DNA of 64,000 bases, taken from NCBI RefSeq assembly GCF_000026545.1, contig NC_011601.1; one strand, written 5' to 3'. Made by a program: the position numbers. Below are positions 39,201 through 45,200 of the stretch, piece after piece. Within the stretch, counting starts at the first letter, position 1; every line of letters starts with the position of its first letter. Source of the DNA: Escherichia coli O127:H6 str. E2348/69. GTDB taxonomy: Bacteria; Pseudomonadota; Gammaproteobacteria; Enterobacterales; Enterobacteriaceae.

Positions 39201-42200
39201 CCATTCCCGGCCAGGAGAACATAATTTGCAGATTATGTTCATCCAGCCAGCCGCCGAGCGGGCCGTTAGAGCCGTAGAACAGCAAATACACCAGACCGGC
39301 AACCACCGGCGACACGGCAAACGGAATGTCCAGCAGCGTCAGCAATAACTGGCGTCCGGGGAAATTAAATCGCGTCACTAGCCACGCCAGCAGAATGCCG
39401 AACACTAGGTTCACCGGCACGGCAATCAGCGCAATCATCACCGTCAGCCAGATGGCGTGCAGCATGTCCGGATCGGCCAGATTCTGTAAAACCGGCATCA
39501 GCCCTTTGCTGAACGCCTGCACGAAGATGTAAATCATCGGCACCAGCAGGATGAACGCCGAAACCAGCATCCCGATGCCAATCAGAAACCATTTGCCCCA
39601 GTTAATCGGGCGCGCGTCATAACGCTTCAATTGTGTCACTTCCGCCATTAATGACCTACCACACGCCGACCAAAGCGACTTTGCAGAGTGTTAATTGAGA
39701 ACAGCAGCAGCAGGGATGCCGCGAGGATCACCGAAGCAATTGCGCTCGCCGCCGGGTAATCAAACTCCTGTAAGCGCACAAAAATCATCAGCGACGTTAC
39801 TTCTGTTTTCCAGGCGATATTCCCGGCGATAAAAATCACCGCGCCAAACTCACCGAGGCTGCGGGTAAATGACAGCGCCACACCCGCCACCAGCGCCGGA
39901 GATAGTTCCGGCAGCACCACTTTGCGAAAACTCTGCCAGCGCGTAGCACCGAGCGTTTCTGCCGCTTCTTCATATTCCGGGCCTAACTCTTCCAGCACCG
40001 GCTGCACGGTGCGCACCACAAACGGAATGCTGGTAAAGGCCATCGCCACCGCAATCCCCAGCCATGTATAGGTGACTTTGATATCAAACTTCGCCAGCCA
40101 TTCACCGTAAAAACCGTTCACGGAAAAGAGCGAGGCCAGCGTTAAACCGGCGACTGCCGTTGGCAGCGCAAAGGGTAAATCCATCAGCGCATCAAGCAGC
40201 GTGCGGCCCGGAAAGCGATAGCGGGTTAAGATCCACGCCATCAGCAGACCGAAAACGCCGTTAAAAATCGATGCCACAAACGCCGACAGCAGCGTCACTT
40301 TATAGGCTGCGACCACCTGCGGGTTGGTGATCACCTCCCAGTACTGCGCCCAGCTCATCTGGGCCAGTTGCATCACCAGCGCGGAGAGCGGCAGCAGCAA
40401 AATCAGGCACACAAACAGCAGACTGGTGCCGAGGCTTAAGGTAAAGCCCGGCAGCACGCGTCTTGAAGAAACTGCAAACATTACTTACGCCCCGCCGCTA
40501 ACAGCTTGTCTAACTCGCCGCCGCTGGTGAAGTGGGTTTTCATCACTTCCGGCCAGGAGCCAAATTTATCTTCCACGCGGAACAGCTCGGTCTGCGGAAA
40601 TTTATCTTTCAGTTTGCCCATGACTTCCGGGTTATTTACGCGGTAGTAATAGTCGGTGATGATGGTTTGCGCCTGCGGGCTATAGAGCCAGTTCAGGTAA
40701 GCTTTTGCTGCTTTTTCCGTACCGTTGGCCTGCACATTTTTATCGACCCACGCCACCGGGAATTCCGCCAGAATGTTGGTTTTCGGAATCACCACTTCAA
40801 AGCCCTGCGCTTCATACTGTTTACGGATGTTGTTCACTTCCGATTCAAAGCTGATCAACACATCGCCCAGGCCGCGCTCGGCAAAGGTGGTAGTCGCGCC
40901 ACGACCGCCAGTATCGAACACTTCAACGTTTTTCAGGAACTGAGTCATAAACTGTTCAGTTTTGGCTTTGTCGCCACCGTCGGCTTTGTCCGCTGCGCCC
41001 CATGCCGCAAGGTAGGTATAACGCGCGTTACCCGACGTTTTCGGGTTCGGGAAAATCAGCTTCACATCGGAGCGCACCAGGTCGTTCCAGTCGTGGATAT
41101 TCTTCGGGTTGCCCTTACGCACCAGGAAGCCCATGGTGGAGTAGAACGGCGAGCTATTATTCGGCAGGCGCGACTGCCAGTCCGCTGGGATCAGCTTGCC
41201 TTTATCGTGCAGGATTTGTACGTCGGTCACCTGGTTATAAGTGACAACGTCGGCTTTTAAGCCCTGCAAAATCGCCAGCGCCTGTTTTGATGATCCGGCA
41301 TGAGATTGTTTAATCGTCAGTTTGTCGCCACCGTTATCTTTTGCCCATTGCTGTTCAAACGGCGGGTTCAGGGCGGCAAACAGCTCGCGGGAGACGTCAT
41401 AAGAACTGTTCAGCAGTTCCGTTGCCTGTACATGGCCCGCCAGTAGCAGAGAAGCGACCAGCACGAGTGAGTTCTTTTTCAGTAAGTTAACGGCCATTGC
41501 GCACCCTTATAAATTTAACGACTTTCTAATAGCCATCATATTTATAACGGACGTGAAAGGAGTAACGGTTTTATATACCGTTTGGTGATTTGGAAGTTGA
41601 AAAGGGAATAAGACGAAATCCTCCCCACAAATGCAGCTGTCTCTTATACACAAATCCCCACCCGGGGATTTGTGATGTCTGTCAGTCTGCTTTAGGGGGA
41701 CTCTTTCCATCCGGTAGTTTCCTTCCTCCCCGGCAGCGATTTTTTGAACTTTTTCCTCACCCGTTGATCTTCTCTTATATTTCATTTTCTTCGGGTCTGT
41801 TATGGTACTTTCTGATTGTTATTCATGGGCTAACGAGCAGTTTGGACATGCCCGTCTCGGTGATCCGCGTCGTACACGACGCCTTGTGTCACTGGCCTCT
41901 TCTCTCGCTCAGCATGCAGGTCTTTCTATTGTGAAATCATCCCAGTCCACTGCTCAGGTTGAAGGTGCGTACCGCCTGATACGTAACCCGTCTGTGTCCC
42001 CGCAAGCCATTGCCGAAGCCGGATTTACCGCCACTGTAAGGACATGTGAGGCTCATCCGCTGCTCCTCGCGCTGGAAGACACCACCACCATTAACTTCAG
42101 TCACAGTACGGCATCTGATGACCTGGGGAATACCACCACTAACCCGAAGACGCGCGGGCTGCTGGCTCACTCTGTCCTGATGTACGCCCCCGACAGCGCC

Positions 42201-45200
42201 CTGCCAGTCGGTCTTATCGAACAGCAGCGCTGGAGTCGTGCCACGGACACCTACGGTGTTAAGCACCAGCGAAAAGAACGTCCCTATGAAGAAAAAGAAA
42301 GTTACCGCTGGCAGCAGGCTTCGGAGCGCATGGCCGAACGGCTGGGGGAGATACAGAAACGGGTAATCACTGTCTGTGACCGGGAAGCGGATATCTGGCA
42401 TTACCTGCATTATAAAGTCAGCCACGGGCAGCGCTTCGTGGTGCGTGCAGCACAGAATCGCCGGCTGGAAGAAGCACCCGGCAAGCTCTTCGAACTGCCG
42501 GAAGTCCTGGCAACCGCGGGAAGCCACACGCTGAATGTGATGCAAAAAGGCGGGCGGGCAGCCCGCCAGGCCCGGATGTTCATCAGTTACAGCGAAGTCA
42601 GCATAAAAAATCCCGACAACAGCGGCCAGGCGCTCCCGCTCACGTATGTCTGTTGCCGGGAGCAGGCAGAGGACGGCGCCTGCTGGCATCTGCTGACGTC
42701 AGAAAAAGTGGCGAGTGCCGCCGATGCGCGACGTATCGTCAGCCATTACGAGCGACGCTGGCTGATAGAGGAATACCACAAGGCGTGGAAAAGTGGTGGT
42801 ACATGTGTGGAATCGCTGCGAATGCAGACCCGGGATAACCTCGAGCGCATGGTGGTTATCAAGGCGTTTATCGCGGTGCGGGTGCTGGGCCTGCGGCAGG
42901 GCGGTATCAGTGAAGAAACACAAAATGACAGCTGTGAGAAAATACTGACGCCGACAGAGTGGAAACTGCTGTGGGTTAAGCTGGAAGGAAAACCGCTTCC
43001 GTCACAGATGCCGACACTGAAATGGGCCTGTCTGAAACTGGCGAAACTGGGGCGATGGCATGACAGCAAACGCACCGGTCGCCCCGGTTGGGTAGTCATG
43101 TGGGATGGCTGGTTCAGACTTCAGGATATGGTTGAGGGTTACCTGGTGATGAAGTCTCTTGATCAGGAGATCTGATCAAGAGACAGACAAATGCAGGGAG
43201 GAAACAGAGGTGAATCAGATGCCGACGCTAACCGTCTCCGGTAGTGTGCTGCCGCCATCAATCACATTCTGTGTACCGGTTAAATAGCTGGATTCATCCG
43301 ATGCGAGGAAGGCCGCCAGTTCGCCGACTTCCAGCGGATCGGCGAGGCGACGCATCGGGATTGCTTTCGCCATTTCAGTCAGCACCGATTCTGGATCTTC
43401 CGGGTTTGACTGGCGGGCAATGCTTTCCGCCATTGGCGTGCGAACGTATCCAGGGCAGATGGCGTTAACGCGAATACCAGACTGCGCGTACTCCACCGCC
43501 AGCGATTTAGTCAGGCCAACAATCGCCGCTTTCGTTAAGGCGTACGCCGTTTCACCCGGGTCTGCCACCATATCGCCAGTAACTGAAGACATCATCACAA
43601 TGCGGCCATCTTTGCGGGCAATCATCTCCGGCAGCACCGCCTTCGTGACGTTCCATACGCCTTTTATATTGATATCAATATGGAAATCGCGATCTTCATC
43701 GCTCATATCGAGGAAACTGCCCAGACGACAAACGCCTGCGTTATTCACCAGAATATCAATGCGCCCTTCTTTTTCCTTAGCGCGCTTAATAGCTGCGGCT
43801 ACCGACGCCGGGTCACGCACATCGGCGACAACCGCCGTACAGCGATGACCACGACCACACAGTTCGTCCGCCAGCTTTTCGATCTCAGGGGAGATATCCA
43901 GCAAGATTAGGTTTGCGCCATGACGCGCAAAAGTTCTGGCAATTCCTTCGCCAATTCCCTGCAATGCGCCCGTAATCAGTGCTGTCTTGCCCGTGAGTTT
44001 ACCCATTTTAATGCTCTCCTTGTTAATACAGAGCGTTACACTCCATTCCCTCTGAAAATACAGGATAAACAAAATATTGCTGCGGATCAGCTCACTAATT
44101 CAGGAAAATCTCAATTTAGTCGCTGCTTTATGCAGCACCTCAAGCGTTACGTCAGCGCGCAATCATTTTCAGTGACATCACATGAGTAATATTCGGACTT
44201 AATGATTCCTTTGTGTCTATCAAATCGGGATATATGATCCCATTTATCTGCAATTATTTGATCGCAAATATTAAGGTCACCACCGATGCAACTTGAAAAG
44301 ATGATTACCGAAGGCTCGAACGCCGCCTCGGCTGAAATTGACCGCGTATCAACGCTGGAAATGTGCCGGATTATCAACGATGAAGATAAAACCGTACCAC
44401 TCGCCGTTGAGCGCGTACTGCCGGATATCGCCGCGGCGATCGATGTTATCCACACCCAGGTAAGCGGCGGCGGCCGTCTGATTTATCTCGGTGCGGGAAC
44501 ATCCGGTCGTCTGGGAATTCTGGATGCCAGCGAATGTCCGCCGACCTACGGCGTGAAACCGGGCCTGGTAGTTGGTTTGATTGCTGGCGGCGAATATGCC
44601 ATTCAGCACGCGGTGGAAGGTGCGGAAGATAGCCGGGAAGGCGGTGTTAATGATCTGAAAAATATCGGCTTAACCGCGCAGGATGTGGTGGTTGGTATTG
44701 CGGCCAGCGGACGCACGCCGTATGTGATTGCCGGACTGGAATACGCACGCCAGCTCGGCTGCCGCACAGTGGGAATTTCCTGTAATCCCGGGAGCGCCGT
44801 TTCAACCACCGCTGAGTTTGCCATTACGCCAGTTGTTGGGGCCGAAGTGGTCACAGGTTCTTCGCGAATGAAAGCAGGTACGGCGCAGAAACTGGTGCTC
44901 AACATGCTCTCCACCGGGCTGATGATTAAATCCGGCAAAGTGTTCGGTAACCTGATGGTTGATGTGGTCGCCACCAACGAAAAACTGCATGTGCGCCAGG
45001 TCAATATCGTCAAAAACGCTACCGGATGTAGCGCAGAGCAAGCGGAAGCGGCATTGGTTGCCTGCGAGCGCAACTGTAAAACGGCCATTGTGATGGTGCT
45101 GAAAAATCTCGATGCCGCAGAAGCTAAAAAACGCCTGGATCAACACGGCGGCTTTATTCGTCAGGTTTTAGACAAGGAATAACCCATGGCCAAAGAGATC

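What the first reader, a model, noticed from the sequence alone, without database searches (positions are those of the whole stretch)
41637..43186. IS50-family element with IS50-type ends but a divergent transposase, inserted just upstream of cysP
The right terminus matches the IS50 inside end exactly as I recall it, and the left terminus differs from the IS50 outside end at two positions, yet the 457-aa transposase shares only conserved blocks with Tn5 Tnp. The element is flanked by a 10-bp direct repeat (IS50 is known for 9-bp target duplications). It lies 140 bp upstream of the cysP start codon and 28 bp past the ucpA stop, so it may separate the cysPUWAM operon from upstream regulatory DNA or supply an outward promoter.
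Basis: partly seen in the sequence, partly recalled or inferred. Interest (0 to 1): 0.55.

Follow-up and report, generated by a model that had tools for sequence, protein, structure and literature searches.

The report
ISEc13 copy splitting the ucpA terminator
This is an intact copy of ISEc13, an already catalogued E. coli insertion sequence related to Tn5/IS50, sitting in the terminator hairpin behind ucpA in strain E2348/69; the element is ordinary, but its family clearly prefers such hairpins as landing sites.

Summary
Window 41637-43186 is a 1,550-bp element with IS50-type ends. Its right end matches the IS50 inside end 19/19 and its left end matches the outside end 17/19. It encodes a 457-aa Tn5-type transposase (39% identity) and is flanked by a real 10-bp duplication, ACAAATGCAG, which occurs once in the empty site.

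It is not new. RefSeq labels identical copies 'IS4-like element ISEc13 family transposase'. The window matches EPEC O127:H6 E2348/69 at 100%, a strain with 27-30 copies. Only the three E2348/69 assemblies of 5,426 complete genomes carry this insertion.

The suggested effect on cysP is not supported. The element sits inside the loop of ucpA's intrinsic-terminator hairpin, all 139 bp upstream of cysP remain contiguous, and no promoter-like site was found in or beside the element.

Beyond the finding, ISEc13 selects its targets strongly. Nineteen distinct E. coli sites share CCYCY|N8-10|RGRGG, with C at -4/-2 and G at +2/+4 in 19/19. Most are GC-rich hairpins, with an 8-bp duplication in 15/19. 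Twenty-six independent metagenomic flanks replicate the motif (p≈6e-17). Aquatic relatives with the same 23-nt left end sit in A-tract-flanked hairpins, with duplications of 8-12 bp. No paper describing this was found.

The parts
40481..41497 (-). cysP coding sequence, first gene of cysPUWA; its ATG lies 139 nt from the element
   Evidence: ORF list; RefSeq annotation of the identical E2348/69 region
41619..41626 (-). Promoter-proximal arm (TCCTCCCC on the + strand) of the split ucpA terminator hairpin, with the T-run complement AATAAGACGAAA just to its left
   Evidence: The empty site L001 gives one terminator-like call, TCCTCCCTGCATTTGTGGGGAGGA+TTTCGTCTTA on the - strand; RNA fold -17.3 kcal/mol, z -4.85
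41627..41636 (.). Left copy of the 10-bp target-site duplication ACAAATGCAG
   Evidence: present once in the empty site
41637..41655 (+). IRL, 19 bp, CTGTCTCTTATACACAAAT; 17/19 to the IS50 outside end and 17/19 to the hyperactive mosaic end (identical to it at positions 1-16)
41649..41674 (+). Subterminal hairpin CACAAATCCCC-ACCC-GGGGATTTGTG (element nt 13-38). Aquatic relatives have the same hairpin followed by 6-8 T, forming an inward-facing intrinsic terminator; in ISEc13 the T-run has decayed
   Evidence: Fold -22.1 kcal/mol, z -4.87; 8 invariant pairs plus 3 pairs with compensatory changes across 17 distinct left ends
41740..41775 (+). Conserved TTTTTTGAAC motif (element nt 104-113) and a GATC Dam site (nt 130-133) upstream of the transposase gene. 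Inferred to be the transposase promoter region by analogy with the Dam-sensitive IS50 promoter; the consensus scan did not call it
   Evidence: no call; inference only
41802..43175 (+). Transposase gene, 457 aa. Pfam domains Tnp_DNA_bind, DDE_Tnp_1 and Dimer_Tnp_Tn5. DDE residues D93/D193/E323; YREK residues Y316/R319/E323/K330. Carries a private A81T change relative to the common ISEc13 variant
43154..43184 (.). Perfect 13-bp palindrome GTCTCTTGATCAG-GAGAT-CTGATCAAGAGAC that overlaps IRR and the stop codon. ucpA transcripts now run into it
   Evidence: fold of the - strand 43214-43135 gives -26.3 kcal/mol, z -5.77, followed only by UUCAUCACC
43168..43186 (-). IRR, 19 bp, identical to the IS50 inside end; this end region contains three GATC sites (element nt 1525, 1533, 1538)
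43187..43196 (.). Right copy of the 10-bp target-site duplication ACAAATGCAG
43196..43202 (-). ucpA-proximal arm (GGGAGGA on the + strand) of the split terminator hairpin
43215..44006 (-). ucpA coding sequence (RefSeq start); its stop codon lies 28 nt from the element

Best explanation
The element is an intact and probably active copy of the known insertion sequence ISEc13 (IS4 family, IS50 subgroup) in EPEC O127:H6 strain E2348/69. Its Tn5-type DDE transposase moved it by cut-and-paste into the ucpA-cysP spacer. This was a recent, lineage-specific event. The likely source or sister is the agp-yccJ copy, which shares a private SNP.

The landing site was not random. ISEc13 prefers targets of the form CCYCY|N8|RGRGG, which are GC-rich hairpins and often intrinsic terminators. 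The ucpA terminator, TCCTCCCC[ACAAATGCAG]GGAGGA, is such a site, used here with an unusual 10-bp stagger.

The insertion splits the ucpA terminator. It leaves the 139-bp cysP control region contiguous with cysP. The most likely local effect is altered 3'-end formation of ucpA mRNA, with read-in antisense to the transposase gene, and little or no effect on cysP.

Shown: identity, ends, empty site, duplication, target motif, loss of the hairpin. Inferred: activity, that the hairpin is the ucpA terminator, neutrality for cysP.
For: Identity.
- 100% and 99.9% identity over 1,550 bp to copies annotated 'IS4-like element ISEc13 family transposase'. 873 of 5,426 genomes hold a near-full copy, and E2348/69 records hold 27-30 places.
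- Element plus flanks match only the three E2348/69 assemblies. The empty site is present in 5,422 genomes and carries the 10-mer once.

Transposase.
- Tn5 transposase homology at E 5e-84.
- The three Tn5 Pfam domains; NCBIfam transpos_IS4_3, 514 bits.
- DDE and YREK residues conserved.
- Ends verified against a real IS50R.

Lineage.
- The copy differs from the common variant by one base, G406A, and is identical to the agp-yccJ copy.

Target preference.
- 19 distinct sites have C at -4/-2 and G at +2/+4 in 19/19.
- 15/19 have at least 4 of 6 complementary flank pairs, against 4.2% of random positions.
- Median MFE is -17.2 against -5.4 kcal/mol, p 9e-11.
- A leave-one-out PWM ranks the ucpA site 16th-28th of 187,257 position/spacing combinations in the window.
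- 26 new metagenomic right flanks replicate the motif: 20/26 lie above the null 99th percentile, p 6e-17.
- The same hairpins are hit independently. agp-yccJ carries an 8-bp or a 9-bp duplication in different strains. One site is occupied in both orientations, L024 and L163.

Terminator.
- It is called in the empty site and absent in the occupied site; fold z -4.85.
Against: - The 10-bp duplication lies outside the 8-9 bp listed for the IS50 subgroup (PMC2266710) and outside ISEc13's own mode of 8. An 8-bp register, [ACAAATGC], would also have fitted the motif.
- The ISfinder reference for ISEc13 could not be consulted. The name rests on RefSeq annotation.
- No expression data were examined. 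Terminator function, read-through and neutrality for cysP are inferred.
- The CysB site coordinates (-85 to -41) are recalled from memory, because the primary papers were not held. The E. coli cysP start site was not verified.
- The observed sites are survivors, so selection contributes to their distribution.
Confidence: 0.85

Rival explanations
1. The insertion rewires cysPUWAM expression, either by separating it from upstream regulatory DNA or by providing an outward promoter from the left end.
For: The element lies 139 nt upstream of the cysP ATG, close to the expected upstream edge of the CysB activation site. That site is centred 50-60 bp upstream of the start site per PMC11329422.
Against: - In the empty site the DNA immediately upstream of this point is the ucpA terminator and the end of ucpA, not a regulatory region.
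- The duplicated 10 bp and the proximal hairpin arm stay attached to the cysP side.
- No sigma-70-like site was found on either strand of 41400-43300.
- The transposase gene is divergent from cysP.
Confidence: 0.08
2. The flanking repeat does not reflect a 10-bp stagger. Instead it is the usual 8-bp duplication ACAAATGC plus two extra bases, AG, at the left junction. These could be carried over from a donor flank or added during repair, and happen to match the next two target bases.
For: - 8 bp is the mode (15/19).
- The 8-bp register CCCC[ACAAATGC]AGGG fits the motif slightly better than the 10-bp register (10.2 against 9.4).
- At least one other copy has a left flank ending in AG (L026).
Against: - It needs an imprecise end cleavage, which is rare for hairpin-mediated Tn5-type excision (established knowledge), plus a 1/16 coincidence.
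- Duplications of 9 bp in ISEc13, and of 9, 11 and 12 bp in close relatives, show that the stagger varies in this clade.
Confidence: 0.12
3. The concentration of ISEc13 in hairpins between convergent genes reflects purifying selection, in which only harmless insertions survive, rather than target choice by the transposase.
For: - All sites examined are survivors in natural genomes, and many lie in intergenic regions between convergent genes.
- A general enrichment of insertion sequences between convergent genes and near terminator-like sequences has been reported (bioRxiv 10.1101/2025.07.22.666184).
Against: - Selection cannot explain base-level invariance (C at -4/-2 and G at +2/+4 in 19/19) or duplications centred on the dyad.
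- It cannot explain repeated independent hits on the same hairpin with different duplication length or orientation.
- One motif-conforming insertion lies inside a gene, dgoD (L008).
Confidence: 0.07
4. It is a previously undescribed IS50-like element.
For: Only 39% protein identity to Tn5 transposase, and essentially no nucleotide similarity to IS50 outside the ends.
Against: It is annotated as ISEc13 in RefSeq and is present in thousands of E. coli records. ISEc13 is named in 8 papers.
Confidence: 0.02

Closest known systems
ISEc13 (IS4 family, IS50 subgroup; ISfinder name as used by RefSeq/PGAP)
   Same: Identical or 99.9% identical over the full 1,550 bp to copies so annotated, with the same 457-aa transposase and the same ends.
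   Different: This copy has a 10-bp duplication instead of the usual 8 bp, and a private A81T change shared only with the agp-yccJ copy of E2348/69.
IS50 / Tn5
   Same: - Right end identical to the inside end and left end 17/19 to the outside end.
- Stop codon at the same distance from the end.
- Same three protein domains, with DDE and YREK residues conserved.
- GATC sites in the inside-type end and upstream of the transposase gene.
   Different: - 39% protein identity.
- 1,550 bp against 1,534 bp.
- The transposase gene starts at nt 166 against nt 93.
- No Met at the Tn5 inhibitor start (M56 aligns to Q52).
- An added subterminal hairpin at the left end.
- Duplication of 8 bp (range 8-10) against a fixed 9 bp.
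- A strong target motif, whereas Tn5 has only a weak consensus (the Tn5 point is from established knowledge and PMC1525189).
IS231A and IS186 (IS4-family elements with GC-rich palindromic targets)
   Same: The target consists of two GC-rich arms of opposite polarity flanking the duplicated segment. IS186 also shows variable duplication length.
   Different: The polarity is reversed: GGG-N5-CCC for IS231A and G-run/N/C-run for IS186, against C-run/N8/G-run here. These consensus sequences are recalled from memory. Only the existence of an IS186 consensus target (title of SaiSree et al. 2001) and of IS231A specificity (PMC2266710) was confirmed here.
REP- or palindrome-targeting insertion sequences (ISRm22 of the IS4 family; ISPsy8, ISPa11, ISPpu9/10)
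   Same: Insertion at or near the symmetry axis of extragenic palindromes that can form hairpins (PMC1525189).
   Different: Those elements target one species-specific repeat family. ISEc13 targets unrelated single-copy hairpins that share only short arm motifs, and the aquatic relatives target terminator-like hairpins with varied stem sequences.

Membership tests
IS4 family | DDE catalytic triad with the Y-(2)-R-(3)-E-(6)-K signature (PMC2266710) | tested here: met
   D93, D193, E323; Y316, R319, E323, K330 aligned to Tn5 D97/D188/E326 and Y319/R322/E326/K333
IS4 family | Single transposase ORF without a frameshift, bounded by terminal inverted repeats | tested here: met
   One 457-aa ORF at 41802-43175; the two ends are identical at positions 1-9 and in 17 of the first 35 positions
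IS50 subgroup | End consensus CW------Y---CA-A--W- and size 1350-1550 bp (Table 1 of PMC2266710) | tested here: met
   Both ends fit every specified position (C1, T2, T9, C13, A14, A16, T19); length 1,550 bp
IS50 subgroup | Target duplication of 8-9 bp | tested here: met
   Met for the element: 8 bp in 15 and 9 bp in 3 of 19 sites. This particular copy is the exception at 10 bp
IS50 subgroup | Tn5-type transposase architecture: N-terminal DNA-binding domain, DDE core, C-terminal dimerisation domain | tested here: met
   PF14706, PF01609 and PF02281; collinear alignment to PDB Tn5 transposases at E 5e-84
ISEc13 (the named element) | Near-identity to the ISfinder reference sequence. The ISfinder convention, recalled from memory, is >95% nucleotide or >98% protein identity for the same element | not testable with these tools
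As a proxy, the copy is 100-99.8% identical to 17 listed RefSeq copies whose product is named 'IS4-like element ISEc13 family transposase'
Intrinsic (Rho-independent) terminator (the target hairpin behind ucpA) | GC-rich stem-loop followed by a T-run directly downstream of a gene | tested here: met
   Pattern call on the - strand of the empty site, 10 pairs plus TTTCGTCTTA, beginning within 15 nt of the ucpA stop; -17.3 kcal/mol, z -4.85
Intrinsic (Rho-independent) terminator (the target hairpin behind ucpA) | Transcripts actually end there | not testable with these tools
   No transcript 3'-end data available

The most novel reading that the evidence does not exclude
ISEc13 and its aquatic relatives share the 23-nt left end CTGTCTCTTATACACAAATCCCC. 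On this reading they form a clade of Tn5-type transposases that select intrinsic-terminator-like hairpins. Their strand-transfer positions follow the hairpin arms rather than a fixed stagger, giving duplications of 8, 9, 10, 11 and 12 bp. That would make them a shape- or structure-reading variant of the otherwise near-random Tn5 transpososome. Each also carries a conserved terminator-type hairpin just inside its left end.
Probability: 0.3. Interest if true: 0.55.

Novelty: already known. Interest (0 to 1): 0.2.

Why it matters
As an element it does not matter much. It is one of about 30 ISEc13 copies in a reference EPEC genome, and it probably does not disturb cysP.

Three points have practical value:
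- Anyone interpreting ucpA or cysP expression in E2348/69 should know that the ucpA terminator is split in this strain.
- ISEc13 insertion sites are predictable. CCYCY-N8-RGRGG hairpins are hot spots, which helps in reading insertion-driven variation and assembly breaks in E. coli.
- A close relative of the Tn5 transposase, with almost the same end sequences but strong target selectivity and a flexible stagger, would be a useful natural contrast. It could help in understanding or engineering target capture by Tn5-type enzymes, which are used precisely because they insert nearly at random.

Tried and rejected
1. The E2348/69 genome paper and the primary CysB/cysP footprinting papers are not held. 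CysB site coordinates therefore rest on memory and on a secondary description. PMC6483228 gave nothing useful.

2. Terminator-like matches on the antisense strand inside the element numbered 5 against 1.9±1.4 expected. They looked like possible substitutes for the lost ucpA terminator. The two tested fold no better than shuffles (z -1.2 and +1.2), so this idea was dropped.

3. Orientation bias in the relatives. An A-run lies on the left-end side in 60 of 77 left flanks. However, 4 of the 8 right-end flanks available also carry an A-run. One reconstructed Vibrio ouci site, paired by eye from L093's left flank and L092's right-end flank, reads as a bidirectional terminator. ISEc13 sites in E. 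coli occur in both orientations. No conclusion on orientation.

4. The rule 'duplication = loop + 2 bp each side' fits five of six Alishewanella-type sites (hairpins read by eye) but not all E. coli sites (e.g. L017 and the window). It was not adopted.

5. Literature searches for a description of this target preference found none. One preprint reports a general enrichment of terminator-like sequences near and inside insertion sequences.

6. Antisense ORFs inside the transposase gene, such as the 250-aa ORF at 41937-42689, are not annotated in RefSeq and were not pursued.

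
Full report
**What is there.**
Window 41637-43186 is a 1,550-bp element.
- Its left end is CTGTCTCTTATACACAAAT. The reverse complement of its right end is CTGTCTCTTGATCAGATCT.
- I checked the Tn5 end sequences rather than trusting memory. PMC2566895 prints the outside end and the mosaic end.
- A real IS50R on a Citrobacter plasmid (L110) has the outside end at its left, the inside end at its right, a length of 1,534 bp and a 9-bp duplication.
- The window element's right end equals the inside end 19/19. 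Its left end differs from the outside end at positions 4 and 18, and matches the hyperactive mosaic end at positions 1-16.
- A single ORF at 41802-43175 encodes 457 aa.
- The protein matches solved Tn5 transposases collinearly from residue 6 to 453 at E 5e-84.
- It carries the three Tn5 Pfam domains and hits NCBIfam transpos_IS4_3 at 514 bits.
- It keeps the DDE residues (D93, D193, E323) and the YREK residues (Y316, R319, E323, K330).
- Identity to Tn5 transposase is 39% by BLASTP and 42.6% by global alignment.
- Tn5's M56, the start of its inhibitor protein, aligns to Q52, so a Tn5-type inhibitor is unlikely (inference).

**The duplication and the empty site.**
- ACAAATGCAG flanks the element on both sides.
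- A query made by joining the flanks with one copy of the 10-mer matches 5,422 of 5,426 complete E. coli genomes contiguously.
- In the empty site that was read (L001), the 10-mer occurs once: CCTCCCC-ACAAATGCAG-GGAGGA.
- Because the base before CTGTCTC and the base after GAGACAG vary among copies, the element's limits are fixed. This duplication is therefore 10 bp.

**Identity.**
- The element is 100% identical to copies in two E. coli O127:H6 E2348/69 assemblies and 99.9% identical to a third.
- All are annotated 'IS4-like element ISEc13 family transposase'.
- 873 genomes carry a near-full copy, and the E2348/69 records hold 27-30 places.
- Element plus flanks match only those three assemblies. 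The window is therefore E2348/69, and this insertion is specific to that lineage.
- The copy differs from the common ISEc13 variant by one base (G406A, giving A81T). It is identical to the agp-yccJ copy in the same genome, so the two are parent and daughter or sisters.
- ISEc13 is a catalogued name found in eight papers. The ISfinder record itself could not be consulted.

**Where it landed.**
- In the empty site the only terminator-like call is on the minus strand immediately after ucpA: TCCTCCCTGCATTTGTGGGGAGGA followed by TTTCGTCTTA.
- That hairpin folds at -17.3 kcal/mol with z -4.85.
- The element sits inside this hairpin, and the call disappears in the occupied window.
- ucpA transcripts now run into the right end. 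There a perfect 13-bp palindrome overlapping the inverted repeat folds at -26.3 kcal/mol (z -5.8), but it is followed by a poor U-tract.
- No sigma-70-like promoter was found on either strand of 41400-43300. The transposase gene points away from cysP.
- The 139 bp upstream of the cysP ATG stay contiguous with cysP.
- CysB activation sites are centred 50-60 bp upstream of the start site (PMC11329422). The figure of -85 to -41 for the cysP site is from memory, and the E. coli start site was not verified.
- My reading is that the regulatory idea in the finding is unlikely, and that the local effect falls mainly on the ucpA 3' end.

**Target preference, beyond the finding.**
- I reconstructed 19 distinct ISEc13 target sites from RefSeq genomes and other assemblies. 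Two of them were rebuilt from a pair of copies that had swapped flanks.
- Fifteen have 8-bp duplications, three have 9 bp, and the window has 10 bp.
- C occupies -4 and -2, and G occupies +2 and +4, in 19/19 sites. The consensus is CCYCY|N8|RGRGG.
- 15/19 have at least four of six complementary flanking pairs, against 4.2% of random positions.
- Reconstructed sites fold far better than random windows (median -17.2 against -5.4 kcal/mol, p 9e-11).
- Several sites lie between convergent genes just past stop codons.
- A half-site matrix trained without the window ranks the ucpA hairpin 16th-28th of 187,257 position/spacing combinations in the 62-kb background. An 8-bp register would also have fitted.
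- As an independent replication, a metagenome scan for the ISEc13-type right end gave 26 new right flanks. Twenty exceed the 99th percentile of the null, and 25 exceed the 95th (Mann-Whitney p 6e-17).
- The same hairpins are hit more than once. agp-yccJ carries an 8-bp duplication in one strain and 9 bp in others. One site is occupied in both orientations, L024 and L163.
- Selection alone cannot produce base-level invariance of this kind.

**Relatives.**
- The exact 23-nt left end occurs in 81 stretches of species-representative genomes. All are aquatic Gammaproteobacteria: Vibrio, Photobacterium, Aeromonas, Shewanella, Alishewanella, Neiella, Aliagarivorans and Rheinheimera.
- One relative's transposase is 50% identical to that of ISEc13.
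- Their 77 distinct left flanks share a profile:
  - an A-run at -19 to -14 (up to 87% A);
  - a GC-rich arm at -13 to -8;
  - an AT-rich loop;
  - G and C at -2 and -1.
- So these elements also sit in A-tract-flanked hairpins, here with varied stem sequences.
- Complete copies show duplications of 8, 8, 8, 9, 11 and 12 bp (with flank pairs L107/L108 re-matched).
- Just inside the left end every member has the hairpin AAATCCCC...GGGGATTT. It has eight invariant pairs and three inner pairs with compensatory changes.
- In the relatives this hairpin is followed by 6-8 T and then TTGAAC, forming an inward-facing terminator next to a probable promoter.
- In ISEc13 the T-run is gone, and about 65 nt separate the hairpin from TTTTTTGAAC and a GATC site.

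**Comparison with known systems.**
- The element meets every testable criterion of the IS4 family and the IS50 subgroup (PMC2266710). The exception is that this copy's duplication is 10 bp rather than 8-9.
- GC-rich palindromic targets are known elsewhere in the family for IS231A and IS186. Their consensus sequences are recalled from memory; only their existence was confirmed.
- REP-targeting is known for ISRm22 (PMC1525189).
- I found no paper describing the ISEc13 preference. A recent preprint notes a general enrichment of terminator-like sequences near insertion sequences.

**Verdict.**
The element is already known, and the proposed effect on cysP is not supported. What remains of interest is the clade's target selectivity and its variable stagger.

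Noticed in passing
L029-L109 (genome-contig hits): The exact 23-nt ISEc13 left end is shared by ~1.48-1.50-kb IS50-group elements in many aquatic Gammaproteobacteria. Nearly all of their left flanks show an A-run, a GC-rich arm and an AT-rich loop, which means insertion inside terminator-like hairpins. Complete copies show duplications of 8-12 bp.
   Followed up: partly
window 41649-41674; left ends of L029-L103: A conserved subterminal hairpin lies just inside the left end (8 invariant pairs plus 3 covarying pairs). In the relatives it is followed by a T-run and TTGAAC. In ISEc13 the T-run has decayed, and about 65 nt are inserted before the TTTTTTGAAC/GATC region.
   Followed up: partly
L025 and L026 (CP148541.1, 2.305 and 2.365 Mb): Two oppositely oriented ISEc13 copies have exchanged their 8-bp duplications ([CTCCCCAA] and [CGAACCAG]). 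This indicates a ~60-kb inversion by recombination between the copies. L107/L108 in Alishewanella jeotgali show the same kind of flank swap.
   Followed up: partly
window 41637-43186 and L007 (agp-yccJ copy of E2348/69): These two copies alone share G406A (transposase A81T), and both have atypical duplications (10 and 9 bp). However, the 9-bp agp-yccJ insertion also exists with the common A81 allele in CP148541.1 (L021). A link between the substitution and the stagger is therefore unsupported.
   Followed up: partly
window 19988-20305: The anticodon stem-loops of three tandem tRNA-Val(UAC) genes (CCTCC[CTTACAAGG]AGGGG) are among the best matches to the ISEc13 target motif in the window, yet they are unoccupied.
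   Followed up: partly
L005/L006 (Logan assemblies) versus L012: At the ibsE/hldE-yqiK hairpin, L012 has the normal 8-bp duplication [TCCTCGGG]. Two short-read assemblies show the element at the same place with only one copy of the 8-mer. The cause could be deletion or an assembly artefact.
   Followed up: no
L010 (pMAR2 plasmid of E2348/69, between hok and finO): This copy has no flanking duplication, presumably because of recombination with the second place on the plasmid. In addition, many F-type plasmids carry only the last ~100 codons of the ISEc13 transposase gene at 97% identity (H102-H106).
   Followed up: no
L011 and L012; L024 and L163: Paralogous ibs/sib-region hairpins, and one further site, are occupied in opposite orientations in different strains. 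ISEc13 therefore shows no obvious orientation preference in E. coli.
   Followed up: partly
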